Positions 6,410 to 22,027 of a DNA stretch of 64,000 bases are shown piece by piece. Source of the stretch: Naegleria gruberi (Eukaryota). The stretch is from assembly GCA_000004985.1 (NCBI GenBank), contig GG738895.1; one strand, given 5' to 3'. Under the pieces are notes generated by a model. It saw only the letters and a program-made list of their open reading frames with translations, did no database searches and was not told the origin of the DNA. Positions within the stretch are counted from its first letter, which is position 1, and the number at the start of each line of letters is the position of its first letter. The position numbers and the translations under genes are program-made.

Positions 6410-7902
6410 ATGTCTCGACAATTACTTAGCAGTGGTGGTTTGTTGATTGGAGTTGTGTTGTTTGTGGCTACAATGTTACAATCATTTACTACTGATCAAT
6501 ATCATCATTCAATGGTTGAAGCCACTAAAATATCAACCAATGCATTTCCGAATAATTACAAGGAGAAAGTTGATCAAATTTGCCAACACATCATCAAAGG
6601 AGAAGAAAAGGGAAAGCTCTATGATTTATTGGCCTTCTTAACAGATACTTATGGCAGTAGATTGGTTGGAACTGAAGGTTTTGATTTGACTTGCAAACAT
6701 TTTGCCAAACTAATGCAAGCCAATGGTTTTGATAATGTTCATACTGAACCTGTTTATAATATTACACATTGGAGAAGAGGAGAACCTGAATCATTAATCA
6801 TGCATGAACCTAGATACATTCCACGTATGGAAGTATTGGCATTAGGTACAAGTCCTCCTGGTTCAGTAAAATCAGAAGTTATTGTGCTGAAGAGTTATGA
6901 AGAATTGGATCAATATGATGTTAGAGGAAAGATTGTACTTTTCAATCTTCCTTGGCAAGGTACTTATGGTAAATCAGTAATTTTTAGAACTAGAGGACCT
7001 GCAGAAGCTGCTAAAAGAGGAGCTGCTGCATGTTTAGTGAGAAGTGTGACCCCATTCTCAATTTATTCAGCTCACACTGGTGGAACTAATTTCCAAGACG
7101 ATGAAAAGAGGATTCCAGCTGCCACTATTACTGTAGAAGATGCTGACATGATTGAAAGAATGATTAAGAGAGGTCAACGAGTTGTCCTGTCATTGAAACT
7201 CAATTGTGAAAATCTTCCACCTCTAACCTCTTACAATACACTTGGTGAAATTACTGGAAGTACCTATCCAAATGAAGTTATTGTTGTGGGAGGACATATG
7301 GACTCTTGGGATTTGAATTCTTGTCCTATGGATGACATTGGAGGAATTTTGACATTCTATGAAGGTATGAAAACACTTATCAAACTTGGATTGAGACCAA
7401 AGAGAACTATTCGATTGGTTGCCTTCACTGCTGTAAGTAATCTGAAATTTAATTAAGATTAAATAATTTAAAATAGGAAGAATTTGGTGGTGGTCGTTTT
7501 GGTGGTATGAGTTATGTCAAAGAGCATGAAAAGGAACTCAAAGATCATATTCTTGCAATTGAATCAGATGCAGGACCATTTAAACCTCTTGGATTCGAAT
7601 TTACTGGAGGAGAGGAAGGTAGAAAACTTGTTGAACTAATTGCCAGTACATTATTCACAAATATCAACACAACACAAGTTACAGATAATGGTGGTGGAGC
7701 TGATGTTGATCCTCTTTATCAAGTAGCTGGTATTCCAGTAATGTCACCTAAAGTAGAAGGAAGTAAATACTTTTGGTTCCATCACTCTAAGGCTGACACA
7801 ATGACAGTTCTTAACACTGATGATTTAGATTTGGCAGCTGCTCAAATGGGTGCTTTCTTATATGTAGTTGCTGATATGGATGTAAGATTCCCAAGAAATT
7901 AA
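6410..7902 (+). CDS. M28-family zinc peptidase (carboxypeptidase Q / PGCP-like aminopeptidase). 2 exons (6410..7432, 7477..7902)
   Basis: N-terminal signal anchor. M28 metal-ligand motifs GGHMDSWD and EEFGG, plus ...FWFHHSKADT. 44-nt intron gtaagtaatc..aaaatag joins the frames. Confidence 0.85.
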
Positions 7903-8020: not shown

Positions 8021-8725
8021 ATGTCAGGAGACGATCATCACCAACACCATCATCATCACAGTGGAGGATGTTGTTCCGAAGCCCATAGTGGAGATTTTCA
8101 TGAACACGATCATCATTGCGAACATGATCACGGAGCACATGATAAGAATGAATTAGAAGGATTTCAACAAACACTCTATCCATATATTGATAAAATTCAT
8201 GTCCGTTGTTTGAATGAACATAAACTAAATGCTTGCCAATCAATTATTAGACCATACGATCAAAGAAAATCAAAAGATGGATATTTGGAAAGTGCTGTTG
8301 ATGAGGAATTATTACTTGTTGTTCCTTTTACAGTTTCAACAAATTTAAAATCTTTTCAAATTATTGGAGGAGACAATGAGTCATGTCCAAGCAAAGTCAA
8401 AATATTCAAGAATAATGAATTATTAGATATTGAAACTGCTACACAAAAGAAGGCTGATCAAGAGCTTGATTTAACTTTTGATATTGAAGGAACTTATGAC
8501 TTTTTGTTAAAGCAAAGCAAGTTCAATAACTGCCAATCTATTACTCTCTTCTTCCCTTCAAATTTTGGAGCTGAAAATACAAGGATTTCATATATTGGAT
8601 TTAAGGGAGATTACTCTGATTTTAAGAGAAGAGCTGTAGAAGCAATTTATGAATCTGCTCCTCAAATGAAGGATCATAAAGTAGATTGTGAATGGACCAA
8701 TTCCAAGACAATTGGTGGACAATAA
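8021..8725 (+). CDS. PITH domain-containing protein (PITHD1 / TXNL1 C-terminal domain family) with a His/Cys-rich N-terminus
   Basis: VRCLNEHKLNACQSII, DEELLLVVPFT, FFPSNFGAENTRISYIGFKGDY and a C-terminal HKVDCEW align along the length of the PITH/DUF1000 fold (human PITHD1-like). N-terminus is MSGDDHHQHHHHHSGGCCSEAHSGDFHEHDHHCEHDHGAHD. Confidence 0.8.
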   Translation: MSGDDHHQHHHHHSGGCCSEAHSGDFHEHDHHCEHDHGAHDKNELEGFQQTLYPYIDKIHVRCLNEHKLNACQSIIRPYDQRKSKDGYLESAVDEELLLVVPFTVSTNLKSFQIIGGDNESCPSKVKIFKNNELLDIETATQKKADQELDLTFDIEGTYDFLLKQSKFNNCQSITLFFPSNFGAENTRISYIGFKGDYSDFKRRAVEAIYESAPQMKDHKVDCEWTNSKTIGGQ

Positions 8726-8838
8726 TTTTTTAACATCTAAATCTATTAATTTATTAGCTACTACTCATTTCACAATGTTAAAAAATATTCTACCACACTC
8801 ACTATATAAAATTTGTAAATAAAGAAATAAGTATGGAA

Positions 8839-11196
8839 TTATTCTCTCAATAAGGCTTCGAATTGTGGAGCAATCTTGTTAATTCTTTGTTCGAATAATT
8901 CGTTTGCCTTATCAAGTCTTTGACTTAGCGCTTTGAATTCATTTCCAGTAGTTGTAAGTTTCTTAAGAACTGCATAACTTTGTTGCCAGAATGGGATTGC
9001 AACTTCTCTGAATTCTTTATATGGATTTTGACAACAGAGGAACATGGATTTAAAGTTCTTTGGACTGAGTTTGTCTTCTGGGGTTGACAAAAGGTAATAA
9101 GCCAAAATACCCATAATATTGTTATGGTCAACAGAAAAACCAGTGATATCTCTCATAGTAGACATGACACCTGATAAACTTTCAGATGAAATACTACGAG
9201 ACATGTATACTGCTGTCAATAATGATTCATACAAGTGAGCAATATTTGTTTGCAATAATTTAACAATGGAATAGTAAATAGCGAGATCTAACTTGATTAA
9301 TCCTGTCCAACCACTCTTAGACAATGATGTACGTCTAAATGTTAATGGAACAAGACTCAAAATTCTAGTGATCAACAATATTTCATCTTCATTTTCAATC
9401 TTTTCCTCAACTGCGTATGGTTTTTCGTAAGTCCAAGAAGCAGTAAGAATGTTCATCTTGGCTAATTCAACGAGCACAAGTGTTTGTTCTATATGAGTCT
9501 TGGCATTAGATAAAACCTTTCCTTTAGAGGACAAGATGTCTAATGATCCTTGTTGTGGTTTCTTAATATATCCCAAAGTTTCCAAAACTTTCAAGTGAAT
9601 AAATGTTTTAACTTCATTTGGTGTGGTAAAGTTTTGCATTTGATTCTTCTTGAGAAGTGTTGGTTTCAAATTCAATACCAAGCCCAATGACATAGAGTTA
9701 TTGGTATATGTAATTTTCTGTTGTTGAAGATATTTGGTGATGTTTGCTTCATTAATTTGGAATTGAAGGCCATCCATAAATACATTTACAGGTTTTCTTT
9801 CTATATAAATTGTGTCGTTAGAATTTTCATCTGAAGAGTTATATCTAACAAGCATAACATTTTTGTGTTTAAAGTAGTCATTCATTTCACTAGTCAAATA
9901 GTTCAATGATGATGTATAAATAGGTTTCCAAGTGTTGATAAATTCCTTATATTCCAAAGAATCAAAAAGAGGATTTGGTTCATAAAATACTCCATTCACT
10001 AAATTTCCGACCAATTGTGGTGATAAAATACCATGACAAATTAAAAAGTAAATTTCTTCAGGTAATCTTTCTCCAACAATTTCTTCAAAGTCTCTAGGAA
10101 GAGCATCTCTATTCATTACAACAACTGTATTTCCAATAAAATCCAAAACTGGATGATGCATAATCAAATACTTATTTAACAAGAAAGGCACTGTAAGATC
10201 CTCACGAGAATTCATTGTAAGAATACTTTTAGCTGAACCAATTCCTTTGATATTATCAATTTCTGTTTTGAAACGATCCTCTTTCTTTACAGTATTTTGG
10301 AATGGTGAAGGAGAAGAAAATCCTTTGAAAAAATAGCTTCCTGAAAGAAGAGCTGCATCCAAAAATTGATTGCTACTAATTCTTTCTTGTGTAAGAATTG
10401 TCTTCTTTTCCACATATTGGAATGTCTTTTCATCAAAATTAAGTGAGAAAATAACTTTAGGAATATCAAACATTAATAATTCTTCATCTCCCATAACACC
10501 ATTAACCAATTTAGCATCAGACATGTATGACAGTTGTCCCCAAGCTAAATATGGTGCTCTCAAAAATTCGATATCATTTTCATTAAACAATTCAAATAAT
10601 GCATTAAGAGTGTCAATTGATGCCAAAAATTGATTTCCTTGTGCTGTTTACAAAGTGTGTAATTTTAAATATTAATTAATATTAATACAAACCTCTAGAG
10701 AATAACATAAGGGCTTCTCTCTTTTGATCCTTTTCATAAGAACCCCAAGCAGATTTCAAAGAAACTGTTCTAGCTTGATATATACTTGTTGAGCGTTCCT
10801 TCTTTACGCAATTAATACCATTAAATACAAAAACTGGTGTAATTCCAGCATCCCTAAATATATTTGAAAACTATTTCTTCATCAAATACTTACTTGAATT
10901 GTTTTAAATTAGTTTGAACCAATAAAGCTAATGAAATAGGAGTACCTCCTGTAGCCATTTGGAAAGGTTCATGTTTTTCATCATATAAAACTTTCAACCA
11001 ATGAAATCCATCAATTCCTATTTTACATCCACGAAGAGCATCAAGAGATTCCTTTTTAATAAAGTTTTTTTCAGATAAATAACCTATACAATCATGATGA
11101 TAATAATAATATTAAAAATTCCGTAATGAAATTAATCCACAATTAATTCACTTGATGATTAATAAAAAACATACTAGACAATCCTTGAATCGTCAT
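8839..11196 (-). CDS. XPG-N-like domain protein (MKT1/asteroid-type nuclease-like fold). 4 exons (11196..11175, 11083..10894, 10853..10693, 10643..8839)
   Basis: Spliced N-terminus MTIQGLSSYLSEKNFIKKESLDALRGCKIGIDGFHWL... follows the XPG/FEN1 N-domain pattern (M.I.GL...L....l..l.gk.iaIDa..w). Three short GT..AG introns are phase-consistent. The rest is a long alpha-helical body (595-aa last exon). Confidence 0.5.
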
Positions 11197-11637
11197 TTTG
11201 ATCAAATAAATGTAATACTATTAACAAAATTTATTACAACAACAATGTTCTTGTTATTGTATTTTTTTTAATTTAAATTTAGGAAATTTTTGCTTGCCAG
11301 TTCTTCTTGCAATTTTGGCGCCAAATTATATTACTTTTCTATGTGATAGTGATGAACATAATCTTTTCATGATTTATAACTTTTAACTTTCTTGTTGTGA
11401 AAGGAAAGGGGGTTTGTGTGATTCTTATTAAATAAAATTAAAAAATAAAAAAAATTAAATTCGGAACGGACATTGATGATTTAAGACTTACGCTATGATT
11501 AGATTAATAATTCATTTCAGTGCTAGTAAATAGATAGGACATTGAAAAACTCAAGTCCTCGGTTGTCCTTCATCCTATAGCCATTTGATCGGTAAACGAA
11601 ATTACATTCAAAAGATAACCTTTGAAAAAAAACAACA

Positions 11638-12489
11638 ATGTCATCGAAGCCTTCATCATCATCGTCATCACCATCAACAACAAGTGAAGGAGGTATCCGA
11701 CTCTTCTCTCAAAATGAGAGTAAAGCTTGGGCTGAAAAGTTCTTTTTAATTTACGGACCAATTTGGATGTCATACTTTTTCTATTTAATTTACTTTGAAA
11801 TTTATGATAATGCATCAAGAATGGAATGGACAATGTATGGTGTAATTATGGCTACTCCATGTTTCTTATATCCATTATTATTCCCTGGTAAGGCTGATCG
11901 TAATCTTCCGATTACTGAAAGATATTGGTTCAAGGCTAATATTTGGGTTTTCATCTTTAATTTTGTTGGAAATTACTTTTGGACTCATTACTTTTATAAT
12001 CTTTTAGGTGCAACATATACTATGGATACTCATCGTATTAATGATGTTCCATATTTGATGTTTTTATGTACTCAAGCTTATTTCACTTTCTATTTCTCAT
12101 TGAGTAATGTTCTTTTGAGAATTATTTATACTGCATGGAGAAATCCATCAACTTCTAGAAGCATTTTCATTTGTCTTTTCATTTTGGCTTTCTCTTACTT
12201 TACTGCTTTTATGGAAACTTATACCATTCAATATTTCAAGTATTACACTTTCAAGAATAGAGATATGATGTACAAAGTTGGTTCAATTGTCTATGGTATT
12301 TACTTTATTGTTGGTTTCCCAATGTATTATAGAATGGATGAAGAGGAAACAAAGAAAAAGTTCTCAACTTTCAAATGTTGTGTTGAAAGTTTGGGCGCAT
12401 GCATGTTAGTTACAATTTTGCTTGATTTTTGGAGATTGTTTGTTGGTGGTATTGTTGAAAATGTTCCTCAATGCGTTCCATGGATGTAA
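11638..12489 (+). CDS. cpi1: Cycloeucalenol cycloisomerase (CPI1-like sterol biosynthesis membrane enzyme)
   Basis: GKADRNLPITERYWFKANIWVFIFNFVGNYFWTHYFYNLLGA...FPMYYRMDE...MLVTILLDFWRLF is collinear with plant CPI1. Multi-pass membrane protein. Fits cycloartenol-route sterol synthesis in amoebozoa. Confidence 0.85.
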   Translation: MSSKPSSSSSSPSTTSEGGIRLFSQNESKAWAEKFFLIYGPIWMSYFFYLIYFEIYDNASRMEWTMYGVIMATPCFLYPLLFPGKADRNLPITERYWFKANIWVFIFNFVGNYFWTHYFYNLLGATYTMDTHRINDVPYLMFLCTQAYFTFYFSLSNVLLRIIYTAWRNPSTSRSIFICLFILAFSYFTAFMETYTIQYFKYYTFKNRDMMYKVGSIVYGIYFIVGFPMYYRMDEEETKKKFSTFKCCVESLGACMLVTILLDFWRLFVGGIVENVPQCVPWM

Positions 12490-13338: not shown

Positions 13339-15423
13339 ATGCCAGTCTTTTCTTTCTTCAAGAAGAAGGAATCTTCTTCATCAAACACTAAACCAAATTC
13401 TGACTTGGCTAAGAAACTTCAACAAAAAGGTTAGTTTTCTATTCGAAACCAACATTAGAATAATTTTATTGTTTTAATAGATGCTGGTTCTTGGACAGTC
13501 AATGAAGTTGGTATTTGGTTAGATTTAGTTGGTTTAGGAGAATATAAAGTAAGTTGTTGTAGTTTCTAATAACATTAAACTAAACTATTTAGCCAATATT
13601 TATTAACAATTCAATTAGTGGTCAAGAATTACTCGAATTAGGAGAAGAAGGTTTGTTGATATTATTATTATTTCCATTAGTTTCTAATAGATATGTTGTG
13701 ATGATCATTAATTGATGTTTTTATTCGAATCTTTCTAAATTGAACTAAATATCCGTAATATTATCCGTTACTGTCATCACCCATTGTTAATTCCCATCTC
13801 TTTGAATACAATCATTATACATTCATTTATAATACTTTTTACAAATATATATTTAATATTACAATAATAACACTATTTATAATAATACTAATACATACAA
13901 TAATAATACAATAACATGTACATACAATTATATAAAAATAGATATGAATCAACTTCAAGTGACAAAACTTGGTCATCGTAAAAAGTTTAAAAAACTTGTT
14001 GAAGCACTTAAAAAGAATTCAAATATTACAAATTTCCTTGAAACACTTTCAGAAAATGATTCCGATATGATTCCACCAACAAGTAGTAGTAGCAGTTCTA
14101 ATAATATTAATAATAATAATAATGGTACTGCTAGTAATAGTACAGGTGGAGGTGGAAATTTCACACAAACAGCTCAACCATCTAATTTCCAAAATAGTAA
14201 CTTGTCTGAATTGAGTGCAGGTAGTTCAGGAGGTGGTGTTTCAGCTGATTTAGTTTTTAAATGTTATCATGCTGAAGATGTTCATTTAATTGCATTGAAA
14301 AGAGATAGAGCTACTTTTAGTGAATTGAAATTAAAGATTATTGAAGAATATAATTGTTTAAAACCAATTATTAAATACCGTGATACAGAAGGTGATTTTA
14401 TTAATATTAGAAAGGAAGAAGATTTTAATATTTGTAAACAAAATGTTCCAGTTGACTCTGCTATTAGATTATATATTACAACTGAAAATGATGCAGATGA
14501 CACTTCAAGTCAAACAAGTGGAAGTGAAATGTCATCATCAAATACTGCACAACTTCATGCTCAACGTCATACAGATCAATTTCCATCAATTTATGCCTCA
14601 GATGAAGAACCAGAAATGGATGATGGAGCTGTTTTCTTTGATGACTTTGTTGATTCTGTAATTATTATTACAGATGATAAGATTGTTCAATATATGAACA
14701 AATCTGCTGAAAAGGCATTTGGTTATACAAAGAAGGAAGTTATTGGAAGAAATGTCAAGATTTTAATGAGTAATACTCATAGAATTCAACATGATAATTA
14801 TGTTGATAATTATTTAAGAACTGGTCAAGCTAAAATTATTGGATCTGGAAGGTAAGTTTTTATACTATGAATAATTTCTCTCTAATACACAACTTTACAT
14901 CTAATTAGAATGGTTGAAGCTCGTGCTAAGGATGGTTTAATTTTCCCAATTTGGTTGAGTGTTGCTGAATCTGCTTGGTTAGGAAGACATGCTTTCACTG
15001 CTACAATTCAAGATTTAAGAAAGGATAAGAGTAAGCATAGTAATTCTTCTGTTACTTCTCTTTTGGAAAACCTTGTTGATGCTGTCATTATTATTGATCT
15101 AAAATGTAATATTTGTTTCTTAAACAAGTCATCTGAAAAGATGTTTGGTTATAATAGAGATGAACTTATTGGAAAGAATATTAAACAACTCATGCCTGAG
15201 AAGTATTCCATTAATCACGATTCATATGTTTCTCACTATTTGGAAACTGGAGAAAAGAAAGTTATTGGAAGAGGTAGAAAAGTTACTGCTAAAGATAAGA
15301 GTGGATCAATGTTCCCAATTTGGTTGAGCGTCAGTGAAACTAAATTCTCAGGAGAACGATCATTTGTTGGTACTATTCAGGATCTAAGAAAGGAAAACTC
15401 TTTGGACAAGATGTTGCACTAAA
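13339..15423 (+). CDS. SAM + PB1 + two tandem FixL-type heme-PAS domain protein. 5 exons (13339..13429, 13481..13548, 13593..13650, 13942..14852, 14909..15423)
   Basis: Spliced SAM domain: WTVNEVGIWLDLVGLGEYKPIFINNSISGQELLELGEEDMNQLQVTKLGHRKKFKKLVEALKK. PB1 with Lys and OPCA motif: VFKCYHAEDVHLIALKRDRATFSELKLKIIEEYNCLKPIIKYRDTEGDFINIRKEEDF. PAS-A: DSVIIITDDKIVQYMNKSAEKAFGYTKKEVIGRNVKILMSNTHRIQHDNYVDNYLRTGQAKIIGSGRMVEARAKDGLIFPIWLSVAE...TIQDLRK. PAS-B: DAVIIIDLKCNICFLNKSSEKMFGYNRDELIGKNIKQLMPEKYSINHDSYVSHYLETGEKKVIGRGRKVTAKDKSGSMFPIWLSVSE...GTIQDLRKE. Both PAS domains align to the FixL heme domain ([54 protein letters not shown]). All splice phases were verified. Confidence 0.7.
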
Positions 15424-15544: not shown

Positions 15545-18500
15545 TTATTTTTTCTTCTTCAACATGTATGAAATAATTTCATTCAATGTATCAAAATTAT
15601 GTTGTTGAGAAATGGAATGGATAAGGTGAATTGTGTCTGCTACCTTTTCACTCTTATTTTCTACTTGGGCAGAAATCCATTTACCTGAACAGTGGCAACG
15701 TTCAAGTACGTTATTGGCATTAATTTGGGAGCATCTAGAACATTGTAAATCTTGCAATTGATATCCAACCATCTTATTTTGAACATAGTCAATTAATCTT
15801 CCCTCAATTAGAGATTTGTCAAAGTCATTCGAGCAGTGTTTACATTTAAAGATGTTTTCTGTTGTTGGTTTACCAAGCTCAAGATCACAACAAGAACTAC
15901 AGAATGAACAAATCATATCAGGAACCTTGAAAATATTCTGGGATCTCTTGAACATTGATTCGGAAGAGAATTCCTTTACACCCAATAATTTCAGTAAAGA
16001 TCTCTTGAGCACATTAACTTCATCTCTAATAAAAAGATCAATTGAAAGCATATGGCAAATTGCATTAACAAACTCTAATCTAATATCTTTTTCTGATTCT
16101 AATTGTAGGGAGAGCTCTTTGAGTTGATTACTCATCACTTCCATCAAACCTTCTGAGAATTTAGTTGTCAAATATTCTTGGGCATGTTCTTCTTGGATCT
16201 TTTGAACTTCTTCTGCCTTCATTGTTGAAATTTTTTCATCCAATGATCTTCTATACTTGAGACATTCATACATGTAAGTAGAAAGATAGAATACTAAATG
16301 TACTCTAACTGATTCTGGAAGTTCACTCAATAAATCAATGTGTGGATCAGAAGAAAGTCCAGTCTCTGTTTCTTGGTCTTCCTTAAAGCCCAAGAAGTTA
16401 TCTTGATTAAACCACAACAAATTACTCCAAGTGTTTTTAACTTCAATATCAACCCAAGTGAATAACTTTTGTTGTTGAATGCTTGACTTAAGGTAGTCAG
16501 TGTAAACCTTAGCTTCATCTGTAGTATTCTTGCCAGTATCTACAATAATCTTAGTGAAGTTGGCATAGATGATTCTACATCCACACTTCTTAAAGTGAGC
16601 ACAGAGTTGGAGGAAGACTTTCTTTTGAAGTCTGTAGATGAATGCTAAAATTTCAGGATGGAAAAGCTTAGCATGAGTATTACAACACCATCTATAAAGA
16701 TTTGATAACAACAAATCTGGAACATCAGGACAGGTATTGTCATCATTGTGAACATCTGCGAACATTTTGGAAACAACTTGCTTGAATATTTTGAAAATTT
16801 CAGTAACAGTGGAGAATTTAGATGAATTACTAATCTTGTCATCAATTGTTTCTTCAATAAAACTACTTTGCAAAATGGCATTAATGTCCAAGTGAGAAAT
16901 ATCAAACTCAACACAAACTGAGTGATAGCAAGCAGAGTGATTAATAAAAGTACCACTTCTGGAATACAATTGGTCATCACTCAACAATGCTTGTTGTTGT
17001 AGTGCATCATTTTCGCAACCTCCTAAATCTGGTTTGTTGGCCTTGCTTAACCACAATACATAGTCATTTTGTAAACTTCTTCCAAACATCATGTCAATTA
17101 AATGCATAACAAAGTCATTTGATTCAATATTACCAATAGGAATACCACAATAGTTACTGTAGTTAGTCATATCCTTATACCATTTTTCAATAGCACAATA
17201 TCTGATAAACATTTGCTTGATACAATTATTAGTCCAGTATGCTGAGAGAGCATGTTGATATTTGTTGTCTTCTTCACTGAAAGGAATGGCTACAATAGGT
17301 ATTTCTTCTAACATTGGAGCGATTTCAGAGGCTGAATGAGTTTGGTATGAGAATGGAGACTGAACTAAAAGCAGAGATGATGCCTTTCTTTCCTTCGCCA
17401 AAATGTTGTTAATTTCTTTAAGTACATCAACTCTATTCTTGAAAACATCCAATTCAAATTCTTCAATTTCTGTAATATTCAAGTTAGATTGCTCAATAAT
17501 TTGATCTAATACTTCATCGAATAATCTATCAGGATGCAAACCTGTAGTTTGGAGATCAATTGAATGAATCAAATAAATATATGCTTTCTTGTTTGCAAAA
17601 GAGAACAAACCAATAACACCTCTGACATCACAACAACTTTCAAAAAGATATAATTTTTGCAAGTTTGTTACATCTTTGAGATAAGATACACCAGGATTCT
17701 TCTTAGAATGACTTCCGTCAACTTGAACAAGATCTGAAACAGTAAGCGTATTGGCAGAGTCAATCTTTTCTCTTGACTTTGGATGTACTTGACAAAGTGA
17801 ACCAATTGAAAGAACAGCTCTAAGAACAGGATCAATTTGTGTCTCATAAACACCTTGAATATGAGGATTAGAGAATTCAGAGTAAATAGTTTGCAAGTTC
17901 TTTTGGTAGTACGACTCTAGCAACTCTTTTCTATAGAGGAATGTATCTCTCTTATTAGCTACTGAAGTTTCAACAAGCTGACTTGAGAGAATTGGTAATT
18001 TCTTATGAGGCTCCTCTGATTCACCTTGCTTTTGATAAAAATTGAGATAGACAACTCTTGGTACTTCTATCTTGAATGTTCTCATTTTACCTCCAACACT
18101 AATAAAAAGCTTGAGAAGACCTGGTGTTTCGGATTCTCTAACTTCAATAACATGCCACACGAGGTCTTTAAGTTGGTTAGAATAAAATTGAACATATGAA
18201 GCCATAGTACCATCATTGACAAGAGTGTTACCATCTGAGGATTTAGATTTCTTGGTCTTGTTCTTCTTCTTTTTCTTCTTTCTCTTTTGCCCTACCTCTT
18301 CACCTAATGAATCATCATCAACATCGTCAATCTTTCTCTTTGTAGATTTAGATTTTGGTTTTTCATCACCTGAAGCGTCTTCCATTTCTTCATCACTATC
18401 AGAGGAAGAATCTTCTGTTACGGGTATCTTCTTAAGCATATCCATCAAGGATCTTTGTTTGCTTTGACTTGCATTTTCTCTCAACTTTTTGAGCAACCAA

Positions 18501-21500
18501 TCTGGGTGCTTAACTCTAGGTACTGGATTATCAATAGCTTGTAAAGCTGCAGGAATAGTAATAATTTTTTGAATAGCACTACCCAATCTTTCAATATAAT
18601 AATCCCAATCAACAATTTCCTTGAGATCGATTTCTGTCATTGATGTATCCTTTGTCCACTTCTTCAAGAATGACAAGCATACAGATTCCTCCTTTTGGAA
18701 AACAACTGTTGGAATAACACGTTCTGTAACACTAGCATTTTCAGGTTTCTTTGCCACAATGTAACTACAAACTAAACCCTTATCTCTAACCATTTGTTCA
18801 CCAAAAAGATCAACCAATCTTTTAGCTGCTGTAATTCTTGCTGCCTTTTGATTACCATATTCTTCTAACCTCTTACTCATGTTAGAACTTTCAGTAATAT
18901 AATCAAAGAGTTGCTTAGTTTCAATTCCTTCACCTTTAGTGTAAAGAATATCCAGCCATCTATTTGCAATTTCAGCAACATGTTGATAACATTCAGAGAG
19001 AGAATATCCTTTTAAGAATTGTTCGAAAACTTGAGATTGGAAAATCTTAATAAGCTTAAGTTCACCTCTTCTTTTAATTTCGAAACCCTTCAATTCAGCC
19101 AAAGTACCATCATGATTGAAAACTGCATATCTCTTCTTAATAGATTTACCTTCTTCCTTTGAGGCTGGCAAAATCATAGCACGATAAGGACCGTCAACTT
19201 CGAAGAAAATGGAACATTCAGCTCTCTTGTCCCATTTTCCAGTTTCTGGATTGAAATTTTGATATTGATCGTTACTGAAATTTTGAGCAACATCTGCGTT
19301 CAACATCAAACAAGGATAGGAGATTGTTCTCTTCTTACCATTAGTAAGCTTGAGTGTATAATTTTCAGGGAATGAACCAGGGAGCATGCACCAAATACCA
19401 TCAGTATCCAATTCCAATGAAATACCAATATCATCGATAAGCTCTCTGGCCATTCTAATAATTTGAGCACCATTGTAAGTAACAACACCAGCCATTTCCA
19501 TACTGTACCATCTGGCAGCTTTTCTCATAACGTAACCGTAGAAAGAGTTCAAAATACACTTGTGGGCAAGTTGAAGAGAATCGTACAAAACTAACATGAC
19601 TTTGGACTTTTCTTCAAATTCTGGATCTTTAGACTTGTCCTTCCATTCTTTGGATTTATCTTTAAGTACATATCTTCTGTCACGAAATTCTCTAACTGTA
19701 TTTACATAGAATGGATTTTCTCTTTGACAAATAGTAGCATCCTTGACCATACTTTCCTTATTATATTTCTTCTTGTGGGCCTTTTGACTGATTTCACCCA
19801 CTCTCTTTCTTAATTCTTCATTGGTAAAGTTTGGATTATCGTTCATTAAAGAATTCTTGGCAATATTAAATTCAGATCTAGATGCTGTAAAATATTCAGC
19901 TCTAAAGTGCCACTTCATTATTCTCTTACAATCATTCTCTGGCTTATTGTAAATGCATTGAGCACAGGTGTCCTCGTTAACAATAGCAGATGGTTGAAGT
20001 CTGTGTGTAAGAATAATGTTAGGATACATAGCACCAACATCCAAGTGATATAATTTTGGACATTCTTCTCTTTCTGGTTTTTCTTTGAGTTTAAGTAAAC
20101 CATCAATAATTTCTTGTTTCAATTCCTCAAAGTTGGCAACATCTTCAACTTTCAATTGTTGTTCAACTTCAATTGCAAATCTAATGACTCTATCTACATT
20201 ATCAACTAATTGTTGATATCTGTCTGGATTTAATTTGAATTTGTATGGTATATCTGATCTATAAACACCAGACTTTAAACCTTCTACACGACCACCGATA
20301 TATGTTTCACTTGCTAACAAGTGACCCTTATACATCTTTTCAGGATCTGATTGATATCTATTTGGGAAAATAATATTACCCTTGAATGCTTGTACCATGA
20401 GAAGTGTTTCACAGAGTGTACCTGATCCTTTTCTCAAAACTTCATCTGGTGGCATTGGAATAATGTTACAAAGTGAGAAGATAAAAGGATTGATATACTT
20501 CATATATAAATAGTATGTTGAAACTGCATCAGAAACAGAATAAGAAGCCAATTTTTGAGGTTGACTTGTTGCAAAAGGTAACATATCTTCAGGATCTACT
20601 TCAATAGGATCATACTTTAACTTGGCTTTAGTGACAGCTTTCAAACCATGAGAACCTTGAGGTAAATAACTGTCTCTGATAACCCAATACAGACAATCGA
20701 TATGGAGACCAAAACTACTGCCATAAAGCGTGTCAGATCCAAGCTTTTTGCAATCTCCTGACATTCTATAGTAACCTACATGGTCTCTAAGATTCAGTGA
20801 ATATACACTAGCTCTTTGTTCTATGAAAGGCCAATCGAAAAAGTCACCGTTATACGTCACATATACACATGGTTTTTCTTCTTGCATATGTGAAAACCAT
20901 TTAAGTAATAACTCTTTTTCATTTTCTACGTTGAAAACTTCAAAATATCCAGGGAATTCATCTTTTGGAGTATAATCAAAATTTTCGATATCTTCAGCGA
21001 CGATTTCACGATTCACAATTAAGTAACCGTGGCCGTCAATCATATAAGATATCATCATAATTCTATCTGATTGTGGATCAGGGAACATGAGAGGAGGTTT
21101 TGTGGTTTCAATATCGAAAGCACAAACTTTAGGAACAGCTCTTTCTTCGATATCTTCTCTCTTTGAAATCAAAACATTTCCTTCCTCAACAGAAATATCA
21201 TACCAATAACCAACTCTTAAATCTGTATCAATGGCACAACGAATATGATATTTAATATCATATTCTCTAATATCAACTATCTTGTCAACACAATCAATAG
21301 TCGAAAGTTTAGCTTTCCTTTTACGTCTAATTCCTCTTTCGTAGTCATCAAGATCATCTAAGAACTGATCCTCCATTTCTTCGTTCAATAACTCTTCTTC
21401 TAATAGCTCAAACGAATCTTGACTCTTTTTCTTATTTTTTTCAATTATTGGTAATAACTTAGATCTCATTTCCATCAATTGTTGAACGTTTTTAAATCTC

Positions 21501-22027
21501 AATTTCAAGTACTTTGCCTTTATACCGGAAAGGTGATTAACCTTGTCAAGATCTTCTTTATCTACTATATCCAATGATACTATTGGGTCCATTGATGTTA
21601 AATAATTGCAAACTTCTGTAAATGAATTGTCATCCTTCACAGCAATATAGAAATATGGTTCGAATACTTTGGTGACAGAAAAAGAGTCACCTTCATCACT
21701 CATAAAATATAACACAACTGCAGCAAGATCCATATCCGAAGAATTGGCATCATCTTCACCTCCGGACCCACCCATAGTCAATTTTTCTGGTACACTCGTT
21801 GCTCTAAAGTTTACCAACCAACCCAGATTCTTTGTACCCTCCATCTGTGGTCCAAAGAATCGTTTGTCAATTTCAATTTCCTCTAGTTTTTTCTTTTCTC
21901 TATATTCTTTTAATTGTTGAGCTTTTTCATCGTCATCCAATCTTTCTTGTTGACTGCCATGGTCTCCTTTCTTCTTTGTGGGCTTGTTTAGCAGCCGAGG
22001 TTTATTGTTGGATTTGTTTGTGTACAT
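15545..22027 (-). CDS. pole: DNA polymerase epsilon catalytic subunit (Pol2/POLE), intronless 2160 aa
   Basis: Exonuclease motifs FDIETTK and YNGDFFDWPF. Family-B polymerase motifs LDVGAMYPNIILTH, KxxxNSFYGY and LELDTDG. C-terminal Cys-rich zinc modules (CSFCSSCCD...CKHC, CSRCS...CHCSG). Acidic/K-rich insert. Confidence 0.95.
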   Translation of the reverse strand: MYTNKSNNKPRLLNKPTKKKGDHGSQQERLDDDEKAQQLKEYREKKKLEEIEIDKRFFGPQMEGTKNLGWLVNFRATSVPEKLTMGGSGGEDDANSSDMDLAAVVLYFMSDEGDSFSVTKVFEPYFYIAVKDDNSFTEVCNYLTSMDPIVSLDIVDKEDLDKVNHLSGIKAKYLKLRFKNVQQLMEMRSKLLPIIEKNKKKSQDSFELLEEELLNEEMEDQFLDDLDDYERGIRRKRKAKLSTIDCVDKIVDIREYDIKYHIRCAIDTDLRVGYWYDISVEEGNVLISKREDIEERAVPKVCAFDIETTKPPLMFPDPQSDRIMMISYMIDGHGYLIVNREIVAEDIENFDYTPKDEFPGYFEVFNVENEKELLLKWFSHMQEEKPCVYVTYNGDFFDWPFIEQRASVYSLNLRDHVGYYRMSGDCKKLGSDTLYGSSFGLHIDCLYWVIRDSYLPQGSHGLKAVTKAKLKYDPIEVDPEDMLPFATSQPQKLASYSVSDAVSTYYLYMKYINPFIFSLCNIIPMPPDEVLRKGSGTLCETLLMVQAFKGNIIFPNRYQSDPEKMYKGHLLASETYIGGRVEGLKSGVYRSDIPYKFKLNPDRYQQLVDNVDRVIRFAIEVEQQLKVEDVANFEELKQEIIDGLLKLKEKPEREECPKLYHLDVGAMYPNIILTHRLQPSAIVNEDTCAQCIYNKPENDCKRIMKWHFRAEYFTASRSEFNIAKNSLMNDNPNFTNEELRKRVGEISQKAHKKKYNKESMVKDATICQRENPFYVNTVREFRDRRYVLKDKSKEWKDKSKDPEFEEKSKVMLVLYDSLQLAHKCILNSFYGYVMRKAARWYSMEMAGVVTYNGAQIIRMARELIDDIGISLELDTDGIWCMLPGSFPENYTLKLTNGKKRTISYPCLMLNADVAQNFSNDQYQNFNPETGKWDKRAECSIFFEVDGPYRAMILPASKEEGKSIKKRYAVFNHDGTLAELKGFEIKRRGELKLIKIFQSQVFEQFLKGYSLSECYQHVAEIANRWLDILYTKGEGIETKQLFDYITESSNMSKRLEEYGNQKAARITAAKRLVDLFGEQMVRDKGLVCSYIVAKKPENASVTERVIPTVVFQKEESVCLSFLKKWTKDTSMTEIDLKEIVDWDYYIERLGSAIQKIITIPAALQAIDNPVPRVKHPDWLLKKLRENASQSKQRSLMDMLKKIPVTEDSSSDSDEEMEDASGDEKPKSKSTKRKIDDVDDDSLGEEVGQKRKKKKKKNKTKKSKSSDGNTLVNDGTMASYVQFYSNQLKDLVWHVIEVRESETPGLLKLFISVGGKMRTFKIEVPRVVYLNFYQKQGESEEPHKKLPILSSQLVETSVANKRDTFLYRKELLESYYQKNLQTIYSEFSNPHIQGVYETQIDPVLRAVLSIGSLCQVHPKSREKIDSANTLTVSDLVQVDGSHSKKNPGVSYLKDVTNLQKLYLFESCCDVRGVIGLFSFANKKAYIYLIHSIDLQTTGLHPDRLFDEVLDQIIEQSNLNITEIEEFELDVFKNRVDVLKEINNILAKERKASSLLLVQSPFSYQTHSASEIAPMLEEIPIVAIPFSEEDNKYQHALSAYWTNNCIKQMFIRYCAIEKWYKDMTNYSNYCGIPIGNIESNDFVMHLIDMMFGRSLQNDYVLWLSKANKPDLGGCENDALQQQALLSDDQLYSRSGTFINHSACYHSVCVEFDISHLDINAILQSSFIEETIDDKISNSSKFSTVTEIFKIFKQVVSKMFADVHNDDNTCPDVPDLLLSNLYRWCCNTHAKLFHPEILAFIYRLQKKVFLQLCAHFKKCGCRIIYANFTKIIVDTGKNTTDEAKVYTDYLKSSIQQQKLFTWVDIEVKNTWSNLLWFNQDNFLGFKEDQETETGLSSDPHIDLLSELPESVRVHLVFYLSTYMYECLKYRRSLDEKISTMKAEEVQKIQEEHAQEYLTTKFSEGLMEVMSNQLKELSLQLESEKDIRLEFVNAICHMLSIDLFIRDEVNVLKRSLLKLLGVKEFSSESMFKRSQNIFKVPDMICSFCSSCCDLELGKPTTENIFKCKHCSNDFDKSLIEGRLIDYVQNKMVGYQLQDLQCSRCSQINANNVLERCHCSGKWISAQVENKSEKVADTIHLIHSISQQHNFDTLNEIISYMLKKKK

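What the first reader, a model, noticed from the sequence alone, without database searches (positions are those of the whole stretch)
13339..15423. Eukaryotic SAM-PB1 protein carrying two tandem FixL-type heme-PAS (O2-sensor) domains and no kinase output
Both PAS domains (about 14640-14855+14909-14990, and 15060-15400) align residue-for-residue with the heme-binding PAS of rhizobial FixL. Shared elements are D-x-[MV]-I-[VI]-I-D, IG-[QRK]-N-[VI]-[KN]-[IQ]-LMPE, the proximal-His motif [RQ]-HD-[SN]-Y-[IV]-x-x-Y, IIG-x-GR-x-V-x-[AG]-[KR]-[RK]-DG-x-x-FP-[MI]-x-LS-[IV]-[GSA]-E and [FG]-T-x-[IFV]-[QR]-DL. In FixL this module binds heme b through that His and gates a histidine kinase. Here the output module is replaced by an N-terminal SAM domain (split over three small exons) and a type-A/B PB1 domain (Lys + OPCA YRDTEGDF...EED). 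Both are eukaryotic oligomerisation/scaffolding modules. Heme-PAS gas sensors of this FixL/DOS type are essentially a bacterial invention. A tandem pair fused to SAM/PB1 suggests horizontal acquisition followed by domestication into a eukaryotic signalling scaffold. It could be an oxygen (or NO/CO) sensor relevant to the O2-dependent developmental decisions of social amoebae.
Basis: partly seen in the sequence, partly recalled or inferred. Interest (0 to 1): 0.88.

Follow-up and report, generated by a model that had tools for sequence, protein, structure and literature searches.

The report
Naegleria SAM-PB1 protein with FixL-type heme-PAS
A real five-exon gene of a Naegleria-type amoeba (not a social amoeba) encodes two copies of the bacterial FixL oxygen-sensing heme domain joined to two protein-assembly modules instead of an enzyme; it belongs to an undescribed protein family shared by distantly related amoebae and may be a direct gas sensor.

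Summary
Exons 13339-13429, 13481-13548, 13593-13650, 13942-14851 and 14909-15422 (+) splice (all GT..AG) into a 546-aa protein: SAM, type-A/B PB1, then two adjacent PAS domains and nothing else. Both PAS domains align without gaps to the FixL heme domain (36-40% identity; PDB E 1e-21 to 1e-23). For PAS1 searched alone, FixL and DosP are the only solved relatives. An AlphaFold model of the window's PAS2 superposes on FixL at 1.4-1.5 A. The proximal His and the O2-contacting Arg (BjFixL H200, R220) are each kept in 84 of 85 PAS domains of the family.

Corrections:
- The organism is a Naegleria. The N. fowleri orthologue is 76% identical, and three upstream genes are syntenic.
- FixL-type PAS is not confined to bacteria. 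At least 31 sequence clusters of SAM-PB1-(FixL-PAS)x2 or x3 exist in Heterolobosea and discosean Amoebozoa. Giant proteins with about 13 such domains also exist; the one traceable example is from a kinetoplastid relative.
- A bacterial origin is plausible, but my domain tree does not resolve it.

Best reading: a heme-b gas (probably O2) sensor whose output is protein assembly or recruitment through SAM and PB1. Heme binding is inferred, not shown. I found no paper on this family. I rate it a new variant of a known kind, of moderate to high interest.

The parts
13339..13429 (+). Exon 1 (aa 1-30 plus one base): start codon and Lys/Ser-rich N-terminus
   Evidence: Spliced translation. N. fowleri has the same start (MPFGFF...) and an intron at the same position.
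13481..13548 (+). Exon 2: first part of the SAM domain
   Evidence: Intron 13430-13480 is GT..AG.
13593..13650 (+). Exon 3: middle of the SAM domain
   Evidence: Intron 13549-13592 is GT..AG.
13942..14851 (+). Exon 4: end of SAM, low-complexity linker, PB1, acidic linker, and PAS1 up to the second base of the Arg376 codon
   Evidence: Open reading frame 13944-14855. Intron 13651-13941 is GT..AG.
14909..15422 (+). Exon 5: rest of PAS1, all of PAS2, and the stop codon
   Evidence: ORF 14910-15422. Intron 14852-14908 is GT..AG and absent in N. fowleri.
13489..14012 (+). SAM domain, aa 34-96 (interrupted by two introns)
   Evidence: Pfam SAM_1 7.7e-17, 61.9 bits against a cut-off of 23. Nearest solved SAM domains are Liprin-beta-1, Caskin-1, SHANK2/3 and DGK-delta.
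14247..14459 (+). PB1 domain, aa 175-245, type A/B: Lys179 (14259-14261) and OPCA motif KYRDTEGDFINIRKEE (14373-14420)
   Evidence: Pfam PB1 24.7 bits against 23.6. K179, D220, G223 and D224 are invariant in 8 homologues, and K179, D220 and D224 stay invariant in the wider 9-sequence set. The OPCA motif aligns to Cdc24 PB1 at 1e-3. The model has a beta-beta-alpha-beta-beta-alpha-beta order of elements.
14619..15038 (+). PAS1, aa 299-419, FixL-type. His356 is at 14790-14792. The Arg376 codon is split by the intron (14850-14851 + 14909).
15039..15413 (+). PAS2, aa 420-544, FixL-type. His479 is at 15216-15218 and Arg499 at 15276-15278.
   Evidence: AlphaFold model with pLDDT 87.2 superposes on RmFixL and BjFixL at 1.4-1.5 A.

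Best explanation
The gene encodes a cytosolic heme-based gas sensor that has no enzymatic output.

Each PAS domain is predicted to hold one heme b through the F-alpha histidine (His356, His479), five-coordinate as in FixL. When O2 binds the ferrous iron, the conserved arginine at the start of the G strand (Arg376, Arg499; BjFixL Arg220) would swing from the heme propionate to the bound O2 and shift the FG loop, as described for FixL.

There is no kinase and no C-terminal signalling helix. The inter-PAS linker is predicted to be disordered. The conformational change must therefore be read out through protein-protein contacts. The most likely route is a change in PAS-PAS packing that alters the availability or valency of the N-terminal SAM domain and the type-A/B PB1 domain. 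Both are head-to-tail assembly modules. The ligand state would then control self-assembly of the protein or recruitment of SAM- or PB1-bearing partners.

What is shown: the gene model, the domain architecture, homology and predicted fold identity to the FixL heme domain, conservation of the key residues, and membership of a eukaryotic family.

What is inferred: heme binding (about 0.8), a gas as the signal (about 0.6), O2 specifically (about 0.45), and output by regulated assembly or recruitment (about 0.4).
For: Sequence and fold:
- FixL heme domains are the top matches for both PAS domains by sequence.
- By predicted fold, PAS2 from this window has RmFixL 1d06 at rmsd 1.5 A over 112 columns and BjFixLH at TM 0.91-0.94. 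The first 34 PDB hits are all heme-PAS proteins.
- The N. fowleri orthologue model gives 1.0-1.3 A to BjFixLH.

Key residues:
- The alignment to FixL has no internal gaps. H200, R220, I215, I216 and L236 are retained, and I238 becomes V as in RmFixL.
- Across 31 family members, His is kept in 84/85 PAS domains, Arg220 in 84/85 and Leu236 in 83/85.
- Family members are only 31-50% identical overall.
- Arg220 is better kept here than in the 955 other related PAS domains, where it is kept in 731 (77%).
- Xing et al. [quoted passage not shown]

Output:
- No output enzyme: Pfam finds only SAM, PB1 and PAS.
- All close orthologues end at the same point.
- The PB1 Lys and OPCA residues are invariant.
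- The linker between the PAS domains has pLDDT below 50.
Against: - No experiment of any kind has been done. Heme binding is inferred from sequence and an apo model.
- Two FixL heme-propionate contacts are not kept: R206 is N or H, and H214 is K. These positions also vary among bacterial relatives.
- Nothing here identifies a partner or shows ligand-dependent oligomerisation.
- The PB1 call in the window protein is only just above Pfam's threshold.
- My search for SAM-PB1 relatives with other outputs was dominated by low-complexity words. It returned only PAS-bearing or truncated proteins, so it gives no independent handle on the output.
Confidence: 0.55

Rival explanations
1. It binds heme, but the physiological signal is not O2. 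It could be NO or CO, cellular redox state (Fe2+/Fe3+, as proposed for EcDOS), or heme availability itself.
For: DosP/EcDOS heme-PAS domains are the second-best relatives. FixL domains also bind CO, NO and CN, as shown by PDB entries 1xj4, 1dp8 and 1lt0 listed. Sequence alone cannot fix ligand selectivity.
Against: The arginine that in FixL hydrogen-bonds bound O2 and gives O2-specific switching is almost invariant in this family, 84/85, against 77% in other relatives. Identity to FixL is higher (36-42%) than to EcDOS (25-28%).
Confidence: 0.22
2. The PAS domains no longer bind heme. They serve as dimerisation modules or bind another small ligand, and the protein is a plain SAM/PB1 scaffold.
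For: Xing et al. 2023 report that 40% of the FixL/DosP PAS cluster lack the His and probably changed specificity. R206 and H214 are substituted here.
Against: The His is kept in 84 of 85 domains. Arg220 and the distal-pocket hydrophobic residues are kept across members that are only 31-50% identical. Such conservation is hard to explain without the cofactor.
Confidence: 0.1
3. It is a heme protein with a chemical rather than a signalling role, for example O2 or NO binding, storage or detoxification, concentrated by polymerisation.
For: There are two or three heme sites per chain, polymerising modules and no output enzyme.
Against: No FixL-type PAS is known to work this way (my own knowledge). 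The FixL switching arginine is conserved. SAM and PB1 are typical signalling adaptors.
Confidence: 0.08
4. Artefact: bacterial contamination, or two separate genes (SAM/PB1 and PAS) wrongly joined.
For: None found. The nearest relatives outside the family are bacterial.
Against: - There are four GT..AG introns, one of them inside PAS1.
- Exon 4 is one ORF running from SAM through PB1 into PAS1.
- Three upstream genes are syntenic with a 913-kb N. fowleri contig.
- An intronless full-length homologue lies among eukaryotic genes in L002.
- Amoebozoan transcriptomes give single ORFs that carry SAM, PB1 and PAS together.
- GC content (0.31-0.32) equals that of neighbouring genes.
- Bacterial promoter and terminator signals are at chance level.
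Confidence: 0.02

Closest known systems
FixL heme-PAS domain (Bradyrhizobium japonicum and Sinorhizobium meliloti O2-sensor kinases; PDB 1DRM, 1DP6, 1XJ4, 1D06)
   Same: Same PAS subfamily. The alignment has no internal gaps at 36-40% identity, and the predicted fold is within 1.4-1.5 A. The proximal His, the O2-contacting Arg and the distal hydrophobic residues are retained.
   Different: There is no HisKA/HATPase kinase, no FixJ-type partner logic and no C-terminal coiled-coil. Two heme-type PAS domains sit in tandem. R206 and H214 are replaced. The context is eukaryotic, with SAM and PB1.
EcDOS/DosP (E. coli heme-PAS c-di-GMP phosphodiesterase)
   Same: Second-best relative by sequence and fold (E 1e-10 to 1e-13). 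Its heme-PAS is followed by a second PAS.
   Different: DosP has GGDEF and EAL outputs. Identity is lower, 25-28%.
Bacterial hybrid histidine kinases with two or three tandem FixL-type PAS domains (e.g. P0007, P0011-P0015, P0142)
   Same: Tandem heme-type PAS repeats at similar spacing, 40-48% identical over the PAS pair. They are the nearest relatives outside the family.
   Different: They carry HisKA, HATPase and REC outputs. Their repeats are 61-88% identical to each other, against 48-54% in most of the heterolobosean proteins (32% in P0193). No positional correspondence (d1 to d1, d2 to d2) is detectable.
Chlamydomonas reinhardtii FXL proteins (FixL-like; Murthy et al., FEBS Lett 2012; from my own knowledge, not retrieved here)
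   Same: They are a eukaryotic precedent for FixL-homologous PAS domains. As I recall, they bind heme through the H200 equivalent and bind O2 with moderate affinity.
   Different: Different lineage and, as far as I recall, different architecture with no SAM-PB1. I made no sequence comparison here.
PB1 and SAM polymerising scaffolds (p62/SQSTM1, Par6-aPKC, Cdc24-Bem1; Caskin, SHANK, DGK-delta SAM domains)
   Same: The PB1 has both the basic Lys and the acidic OPCA motif. The SAM domain is closest to Liprin, Caskin, SHANK and DGK-delta SAM domains.
   Different: None of these scaffolds carries a cofactor-binding sensor domain. The combination SAM + PB1 + heme-PAS was not found in the literature searched.

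Membership tests
FixL/DosP-type heme-binding PAS domain (PAS 'cluster 3' of Xing et al. 2023) | Significant sequence similarity to the FixL or DosP heme domain over the whole PAS fold | tested here: met
   PAS2 scores 1.7e-23 and PAS1 1.6e-21 to 1d06. For PAS1 searched alone, only FixL and DosP reach E <= 0.001. The NCBIfam FixL model is the best of 18,950.
FixL/DosP-type heme-binding PAS domain (PAS 'cluster 3' of Xing et al. 2023) | Histidine on helix F-alpha at the proximal position (BjFixL H200) | tested here: met
   His356 and His479. Invariant in 8 homologues. Kept in 84/85 domains of 31 family members.
FixL/DosP-type heme-binding PAS domain (PAS 'cluster 3' of Xing et al. 2023) | FG-loop/G-beta arginine that contacts bound O2 (BjFixL R220) and the hydrophobic distal pocket (I215, I216, L236, I238) | tested here: met
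   R376 and R499. I/V, I, L and V at the pocket positions. The family keeps R220 in 84/85 and L236 in 83/85 domains.
FixL/DosP-type heme-binding PAS domain (PAS 'cluster 3' of Xing et al. 2023) | Heme-propionate contacts R206 and H214 of BjFixL | tested here: not met
   R206 is N in PAS1 and H in PAS2. H214 is K in both. Both positions also vary in the 955 related domains, so they are not family-defining.
FixL/DosP-type heme-binding PAS domain (PAS 'cluster 3' of Xing et al. 2023) | PAS fold superposable on the solved heme domains | tested here: met
   Window PAS2 model has pLDDT 87.2. Fit is 1.4-1.5 A with TM 0.81-0.94 to FixL, and the first 34 hits are all heme-PAS.
FixL/DosP-type heme-binding PAS domain (PAS 'cluster 3' of Xing et al. 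2023) | Actual binding of heme b and reversible gas binding | not testable with these tools
   Needs expression and spectroscopy.
FixL sensor histidine kinase (NCBIfam NF041777 equivalog) | HisKA and HATPase_c kinase core C-terminal to the heme-PAS, with a full-length score above the cut-off | tested here: not met
   Pfam finds no kinase domains. NF041777 scores 108.9 bits against a cut-off of 850, matching only model positions 123-239. The protein ends 2 residues after the PAS2 domain (aa 544 of 546).
PB1 domain, type A/B | Pfam PB1 match above the gathering score | tested here: met
   24.7 bits against 23.6, which is marginal. Relatives score 32-44 bits.
PB1 domain, type A/B | Conserved Lys on strand 1 (type B) and the acidic OPCA motif (type A) | tested here: met
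   K179 and Y-R-D-T-E-G-D-F...E-E-D. K179, D220, G223 and D224 are invariant in the 8-sequence set, and K179, D220 and D224 in the wider 9-sequence set. OPCA aligns to Cdc24 PB1.
PB1 domain, type A/B | Ubiquitin-like beta-grasp fold | tested here: inconclusive
   The orthologue model has a beta-beta-alpha-beta-beta-alpha-beta order of elements with pLDDT 72-87. I ran no separate fold search on this domain.
SAM domain | Pfam SAM_1/SAM_2 match above the gathering score, and a five-helix bundle | tested here: met
   SAM_1 61.9 bits against 23, SAM_2 54 bits against 20.5. Helices at residues 38-98 in the model.

The most novel reading that the evidence does not exclude
SAM-PB1-(heme-PAS)n proteins are a eukaryotic class of direct gas sensors, conserved in Heterolobosea and discosean Amoebozoa. 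They would convert O2 (or NO/CO) occupancy of two or three hemes into reversible polymerisation or partner recruitment through SAM and PB1. That output logic is not known for any heme-based sensor. They would be the missing O2 sensor that lets free-living amoebae, including the pathogen N. fowleri, switch behaviour or metabolism with oxygen.
Probability: 0.3. Interest if true: 0.82.

Novelty: new variant of a known kind. Interest (0 to 1): 0.62.

Why it matters
- Direct heme-based O2 sensors of the FixL type are textbook bacterial devices wired to kinases or cyclic-di-GMP enzymes. This module sits in a purely eukaryotic scaffold. It is conserved with its heme ligands across two eukaryotic supergroups, and I found no paper on it.
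- Free-living amoebae live across steep oxygen gradients. Acanthamoeba regulates aerobic and anaerobic mitochondrial pathways with O2, and the paper describing this (PMC13632651) does not mention an oxygen sensor. HIF is an animal invention.
- A testable candidate sensor therefore exists in Naegleria, including the brain-eating N. fowleri (locus FDP41_012938).
- Mechanistically, it would be the first case of a heme-PAS that signals through assembly modules rather than an enzyme. It could also serve as a compact gas-controlled oligomerisation switch for synthetic biology.

Tried and rejected
2. Exact-sequence look-up of the neighbouring DNA polymerase epsilon ORF, to name the source organism, found nothing on record. 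The species stays 'a Naegleria other than fowleri', inferred from 76% identity and synteny.
I used the N. fowleri orthologue instead.
4. The Biopython tree with bootstrap timed out. My own NJ with Kimura distances on 143 PAS domains and 122 columns gave no supported deep nodes:
   - The whole family as one group had 0% bootstrap support.
   - Heterolobosean d1 plus d2 grouped at 46%.
   - I found no positional correspondence to bacterial tandem PAS domains.
   - So I neither confirm nor reject horizontal transfer.
5. A profile search with the SAM-PB1 half, looking for relatives with other outputs, returned 7 hits. They were PAS-bearing, or short proteins on short contigs that may be truncated. 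The candidate list was probably swamped by low-complexity words.
6. The AlphaFold-database fold library was not available.
7. Literature searches found nothing on this family: FixL + Dictyostelium, FixL + Naegleria, the locus tag, and heme/PAS/PB1/SAM. The Chlamydomonas FXL paper was not retrievable and is cited from memory.
8. I considered bacterial contamination and a chimeric gene model and rejected both.
9. There is no second FixL-type PAS gene in the window.
Full report
**1. What is in the sequence**

The region 13339-15422 (+) holds a five-exon gene. Moving the last donor site by one base (intron 14852-14908) fixes this. All four introns are then GT..AG and the CDS is 1641 nt, 546 aa.

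Exon 4 is a single 303-codon open frame. It runs from the end of the SAM domain through PB1 into PAS1, so the two halves are physically one gene.

Only 122 nt separate the stop codon (15420-15422) from the stop of a convergent 2160-aa DNA polymerase epsilon ORF at 15545-22027 (-). There is no room for further downstream exons.

**2. Domains**

Pfam gives the following:

| Domain | Residues | E-value | Note |
|---|---|---|---|
| SAM_1 | 34-96 | 7.7e-17 | |
| PB1 | 178-237 | 2.3e-5 | 24.7 bits, cut-off 23.6 |
| PAS (two stretches) | 299-544 | 8.9e-25 | PAS_9 2.8e-22 |

No kinase, cyclase, GGDEF, EAL or DNA-binding domain is found.

The PB1 carries both the strand-1 lysine (K179) and the acidic OPCA motif (KYRDTEGDFINIRKEE).
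- K179, D220, G223 and D224 are invariant in eight homologues. K179, D220 and D224 stay invariant in the wider nine-sequence set.
- The motif aligns to Cdc24 PB1.

The nearest solved SAM domains are Liprin-beta-1, Caskin-1, SHANK2/3 and DGK-delta. From my own knowledge, several of these form head-to-tail polymers.

**3. The PAS domains are of the FixL heme type**

Sequence evidence:
- PAS2 hits the S. meliloti and B. japonicum FixL heme domains at 1.7e-23 and 1.8e-21.
- PAS1 alone hits them at 1.6e-21 and 1.6e-20. The only PDB sequences with E <= 0.001 are FixL and DosP/EcDOS.
- Among 18,950 NCBIfam models, the best match for both domains is the heme-PAS segment of the FixL model.
- A four-way alignment has no internal gaps. 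Identity to FixL is 36-40%.

I checked the BjFixL numbering against residues I know (H200, R206, H214, R220, L236, I238). On that numbering both window domains compare as follows:

| BjFixL residue | PAS1 | PAS2 |
|---|---|---|
| H200 (proximal His) | His356 | His479 |
| R220 | Arg376 | Arg499 |
| I215 | I | V |
| I216 | I | I |
| L236 | L | L |
| I238 | V (as in RmFixL) | V (as in RmFixL) |
| R206 | N | H |
| H214 | K | K |

Fold evidence:
- An AlphaFold model of the window's own PAS2 has pLDDT 87.2 and pTM 0.79.
- It superposes on RmFixL 1d06 at 1.5 A over 112 columns, and on BjFixLH at 1.4 A with TM 0.91-0.94.
- The first 34 PDB matches are all heme-binding PAS domains.
- The N. fowleri orthologue model gives the same answer.

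**4. Whose gene is it**

The best homologues are Naegleria fowleri FDP41_012938 (76% identity, full length) and Willaertia magna ABK040_005575 (68%).
- In N. fowleri the gene lies on a 913-kb contig.
- Upstream it has the same three neighbours in the same order and orientation as the window: PITH, MKT1-like, and a 280-aa membrane protein. They are 78, 70 and 86% identical.
- Introns 1-3 are at the same positions. The PAS1 intron is specific to the window's species and splits the Arg376 codon.
- GC content of the PAS half (0.32) equals that of the SAM-PB1 half (0.31) and of the neighbouring genes.

The window therefore comes from a Naegleria other than fowleri (Heterolobosea, Discoba), not from a social amoeba. 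Contamination and gene fusion by misannotation are excluded.

**5. It is a family**

I searched 1.84 billion representatives with the N. fowleri orthologue. I then applied local HMMs for SAM, PB1 and FixL-PAS. This gave at least 31 clusters with SAM-PB1 followed by two or three FixL-type PAS domains.

Sources that carry names:
- Heterolobosea: N. fowleri, N. lovaniensis (a second paralogue) and W. magna (both paralogues).
- Discosean Amoebozoa: Stenamoeba stenopodia, Dermamoeba algensis, Mayorella sp. and Stygamoeba regulata. These are transcriptome ORFs that span all the domains; the Stenamoeba ORF is marked complete.
- An intronless full-length homologue sits among eukaryotic genes in a metagenome contig.

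Across the family, members are only 31-50% identical overall, yet:
- the proximal His is kept in 84 of 85 PAS domains;
- the Arg220 equivalent is kept in 84 of 85;
- Leu236 is kept in 83 of 85.

Xing et al. [quoted passage not shown] They note that only 60% of that cluster keeps it. The near-invariance here argues for a retained cofactor.

**6. Origin**

The nearest relatives outside the family are bacterial hybrid histidine kinases with two or three tandem FixL-type PAS domains, 40-48% identical over the pair.

A neighbour-joining tree of 143 domains over 122 columns is unresolved.
- Heterolobosean PAS1 and PAS2 cluster together at 46% bootstrap.
- The family as a whole is not recovered as one group.
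- The window's PAS domains are as similar to bacterial domains (42%) as to the amoebozoan three-PAS proteins (36-42%).
- There is no position-specific signal linking the eukaryotic PAS1/PAS2 to a bacterial PAS-A/PAS-B.

A bacterial origin of the PAS module is plausible, but it is not demonstrated here.

The SAM-PB1 half is clearly homologous across the family (E 1e-8 to 1e-41). The fusion therefore probably arose once. It then spread either vertically from an early eukaryote or between eukaryotes.

**7. How it most likely works**

Shown:
- the architecture;
- the fold;
- conservation of the FixL heme ligand and the O2-switch arginine;
- absence of any enzymatic output;
- a predicted disordered inter-PAS linker (pLDDT below 50), with only a short predicted helix left after PAS2.

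Inferred:
- Each PAS binds heme b.
- Gas binding, most likely O2, moves the Arg and FG loop as in FixL.
- Because there is no enzyme, the change is read out by altered PAS-PAS packing. This would control the valency or accessibility of the SAM and type-A/B PB1 assembly modules, giving ligand-dependent self-assembly or partner recruitment.

Rivals:
- a NO, CO, redox or heme-availability sensor;
- loss of heme;
- a chemical rather than a signalling role.

**8. Comparison with what is known**

- It works like FixL at the input side.
- It is not a FixL. The kinase core is absent: the NCBIfam FixL model scores 108.9 bits against a cut-off of 850.
- It is not a DosP, because it has no GGDEF or EAL domain.
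- FixL-type PAS domains in eukaryotes have precedents. Chlamydomonas FXL proteins bind heme and O2 (Murthy et al. 2012, from my own knowledge). Some protist PASK PAS domains fall in the same cluster (PMC10468136).
- N. gruberi is known to be rich in PAS proteins, 50-80 per proteome.
- What appears undescribed is the combination with SAM and PB1, and its conservation across two supergroups.

**9. Verdict**

- It is wrong on the organism.
- It overstates bacterial exclusivity.
- It is unproven on horizontal transfer.
- Novelty: a new variant of a known kind.
- Interest: 0.62.

Noticed in passing
Not in the window; proteins P0060-P0110: About 35 clusters of giant proteins (3000-5500 aa) top the search. 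In the one I scanned and read (P0060), a long hydrophobic N-terminal part that looks multi-spanning (by eye, not predicted) and a TmcB-type TPR region are followed by about 13 tandem FixL-type PAS domains, nearly all with the His kept. That protein comes from Papus ankaliazontas, a prokinetoplastid (Euglenozoa). I know of no description of them.
   Followed up: partly
Not in the window; P0008 (754 aa) and P0113 (602 aa): Metagenomic proteins that appear to consist only of five or six FixL-type PAS domains. Their origin, eukaryotic or bacterial, is unknown.
   Followed up: no
window 14852-14908: A species-specific 57-nt intron (phase 2) sits exactly inside the codon of Arg376, the equivalent of FixL's O2-contacting Arg220. 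It is absent from N. fowleri and from the L002 homologue.
   Followed up: yes
window 15545-22027 (-): A DNA polymerase epsilon catalytic subunit is encoded as one uninterrupted 2160-codon ORF, convergent with the PAS gene. Only 122 nt lie between the two stop codons. This neighbour is not shared with N. fowleri, which has an ankyrin-repeat gene there instead.
   Followed up: partly
window 8021-12489: A block of three genes is syntenic with N. fowleri contig VFQX01000016: PITH (8021-8725 +), MKT1-like (8839-10626 -) and a 283-aa multi-pass membrane protein (11638-12489 +).
   Followed up: yes
window 6410-7902 (+): Two adjacent ORFs of 348 and 131 aa look like one gene split by a short intron. 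Judged by eye from the sequence, it may be a secreted peptidase. I did not analyse it.
   Followed up: no
Heterolobosean paralogues P0009 (W. magna) and P0193 (N. lovaniensis): Naegleria and Willaertia carry a second, more divergent SAM-PB1-PAS-PAS paralogue, 31-40% identical, with long Asn/Ser/Thr-rich inserts. One of its PAS2 domains reads HHN instead of HD after the His. The window does not contain this paralogue.
   Followed up: partly
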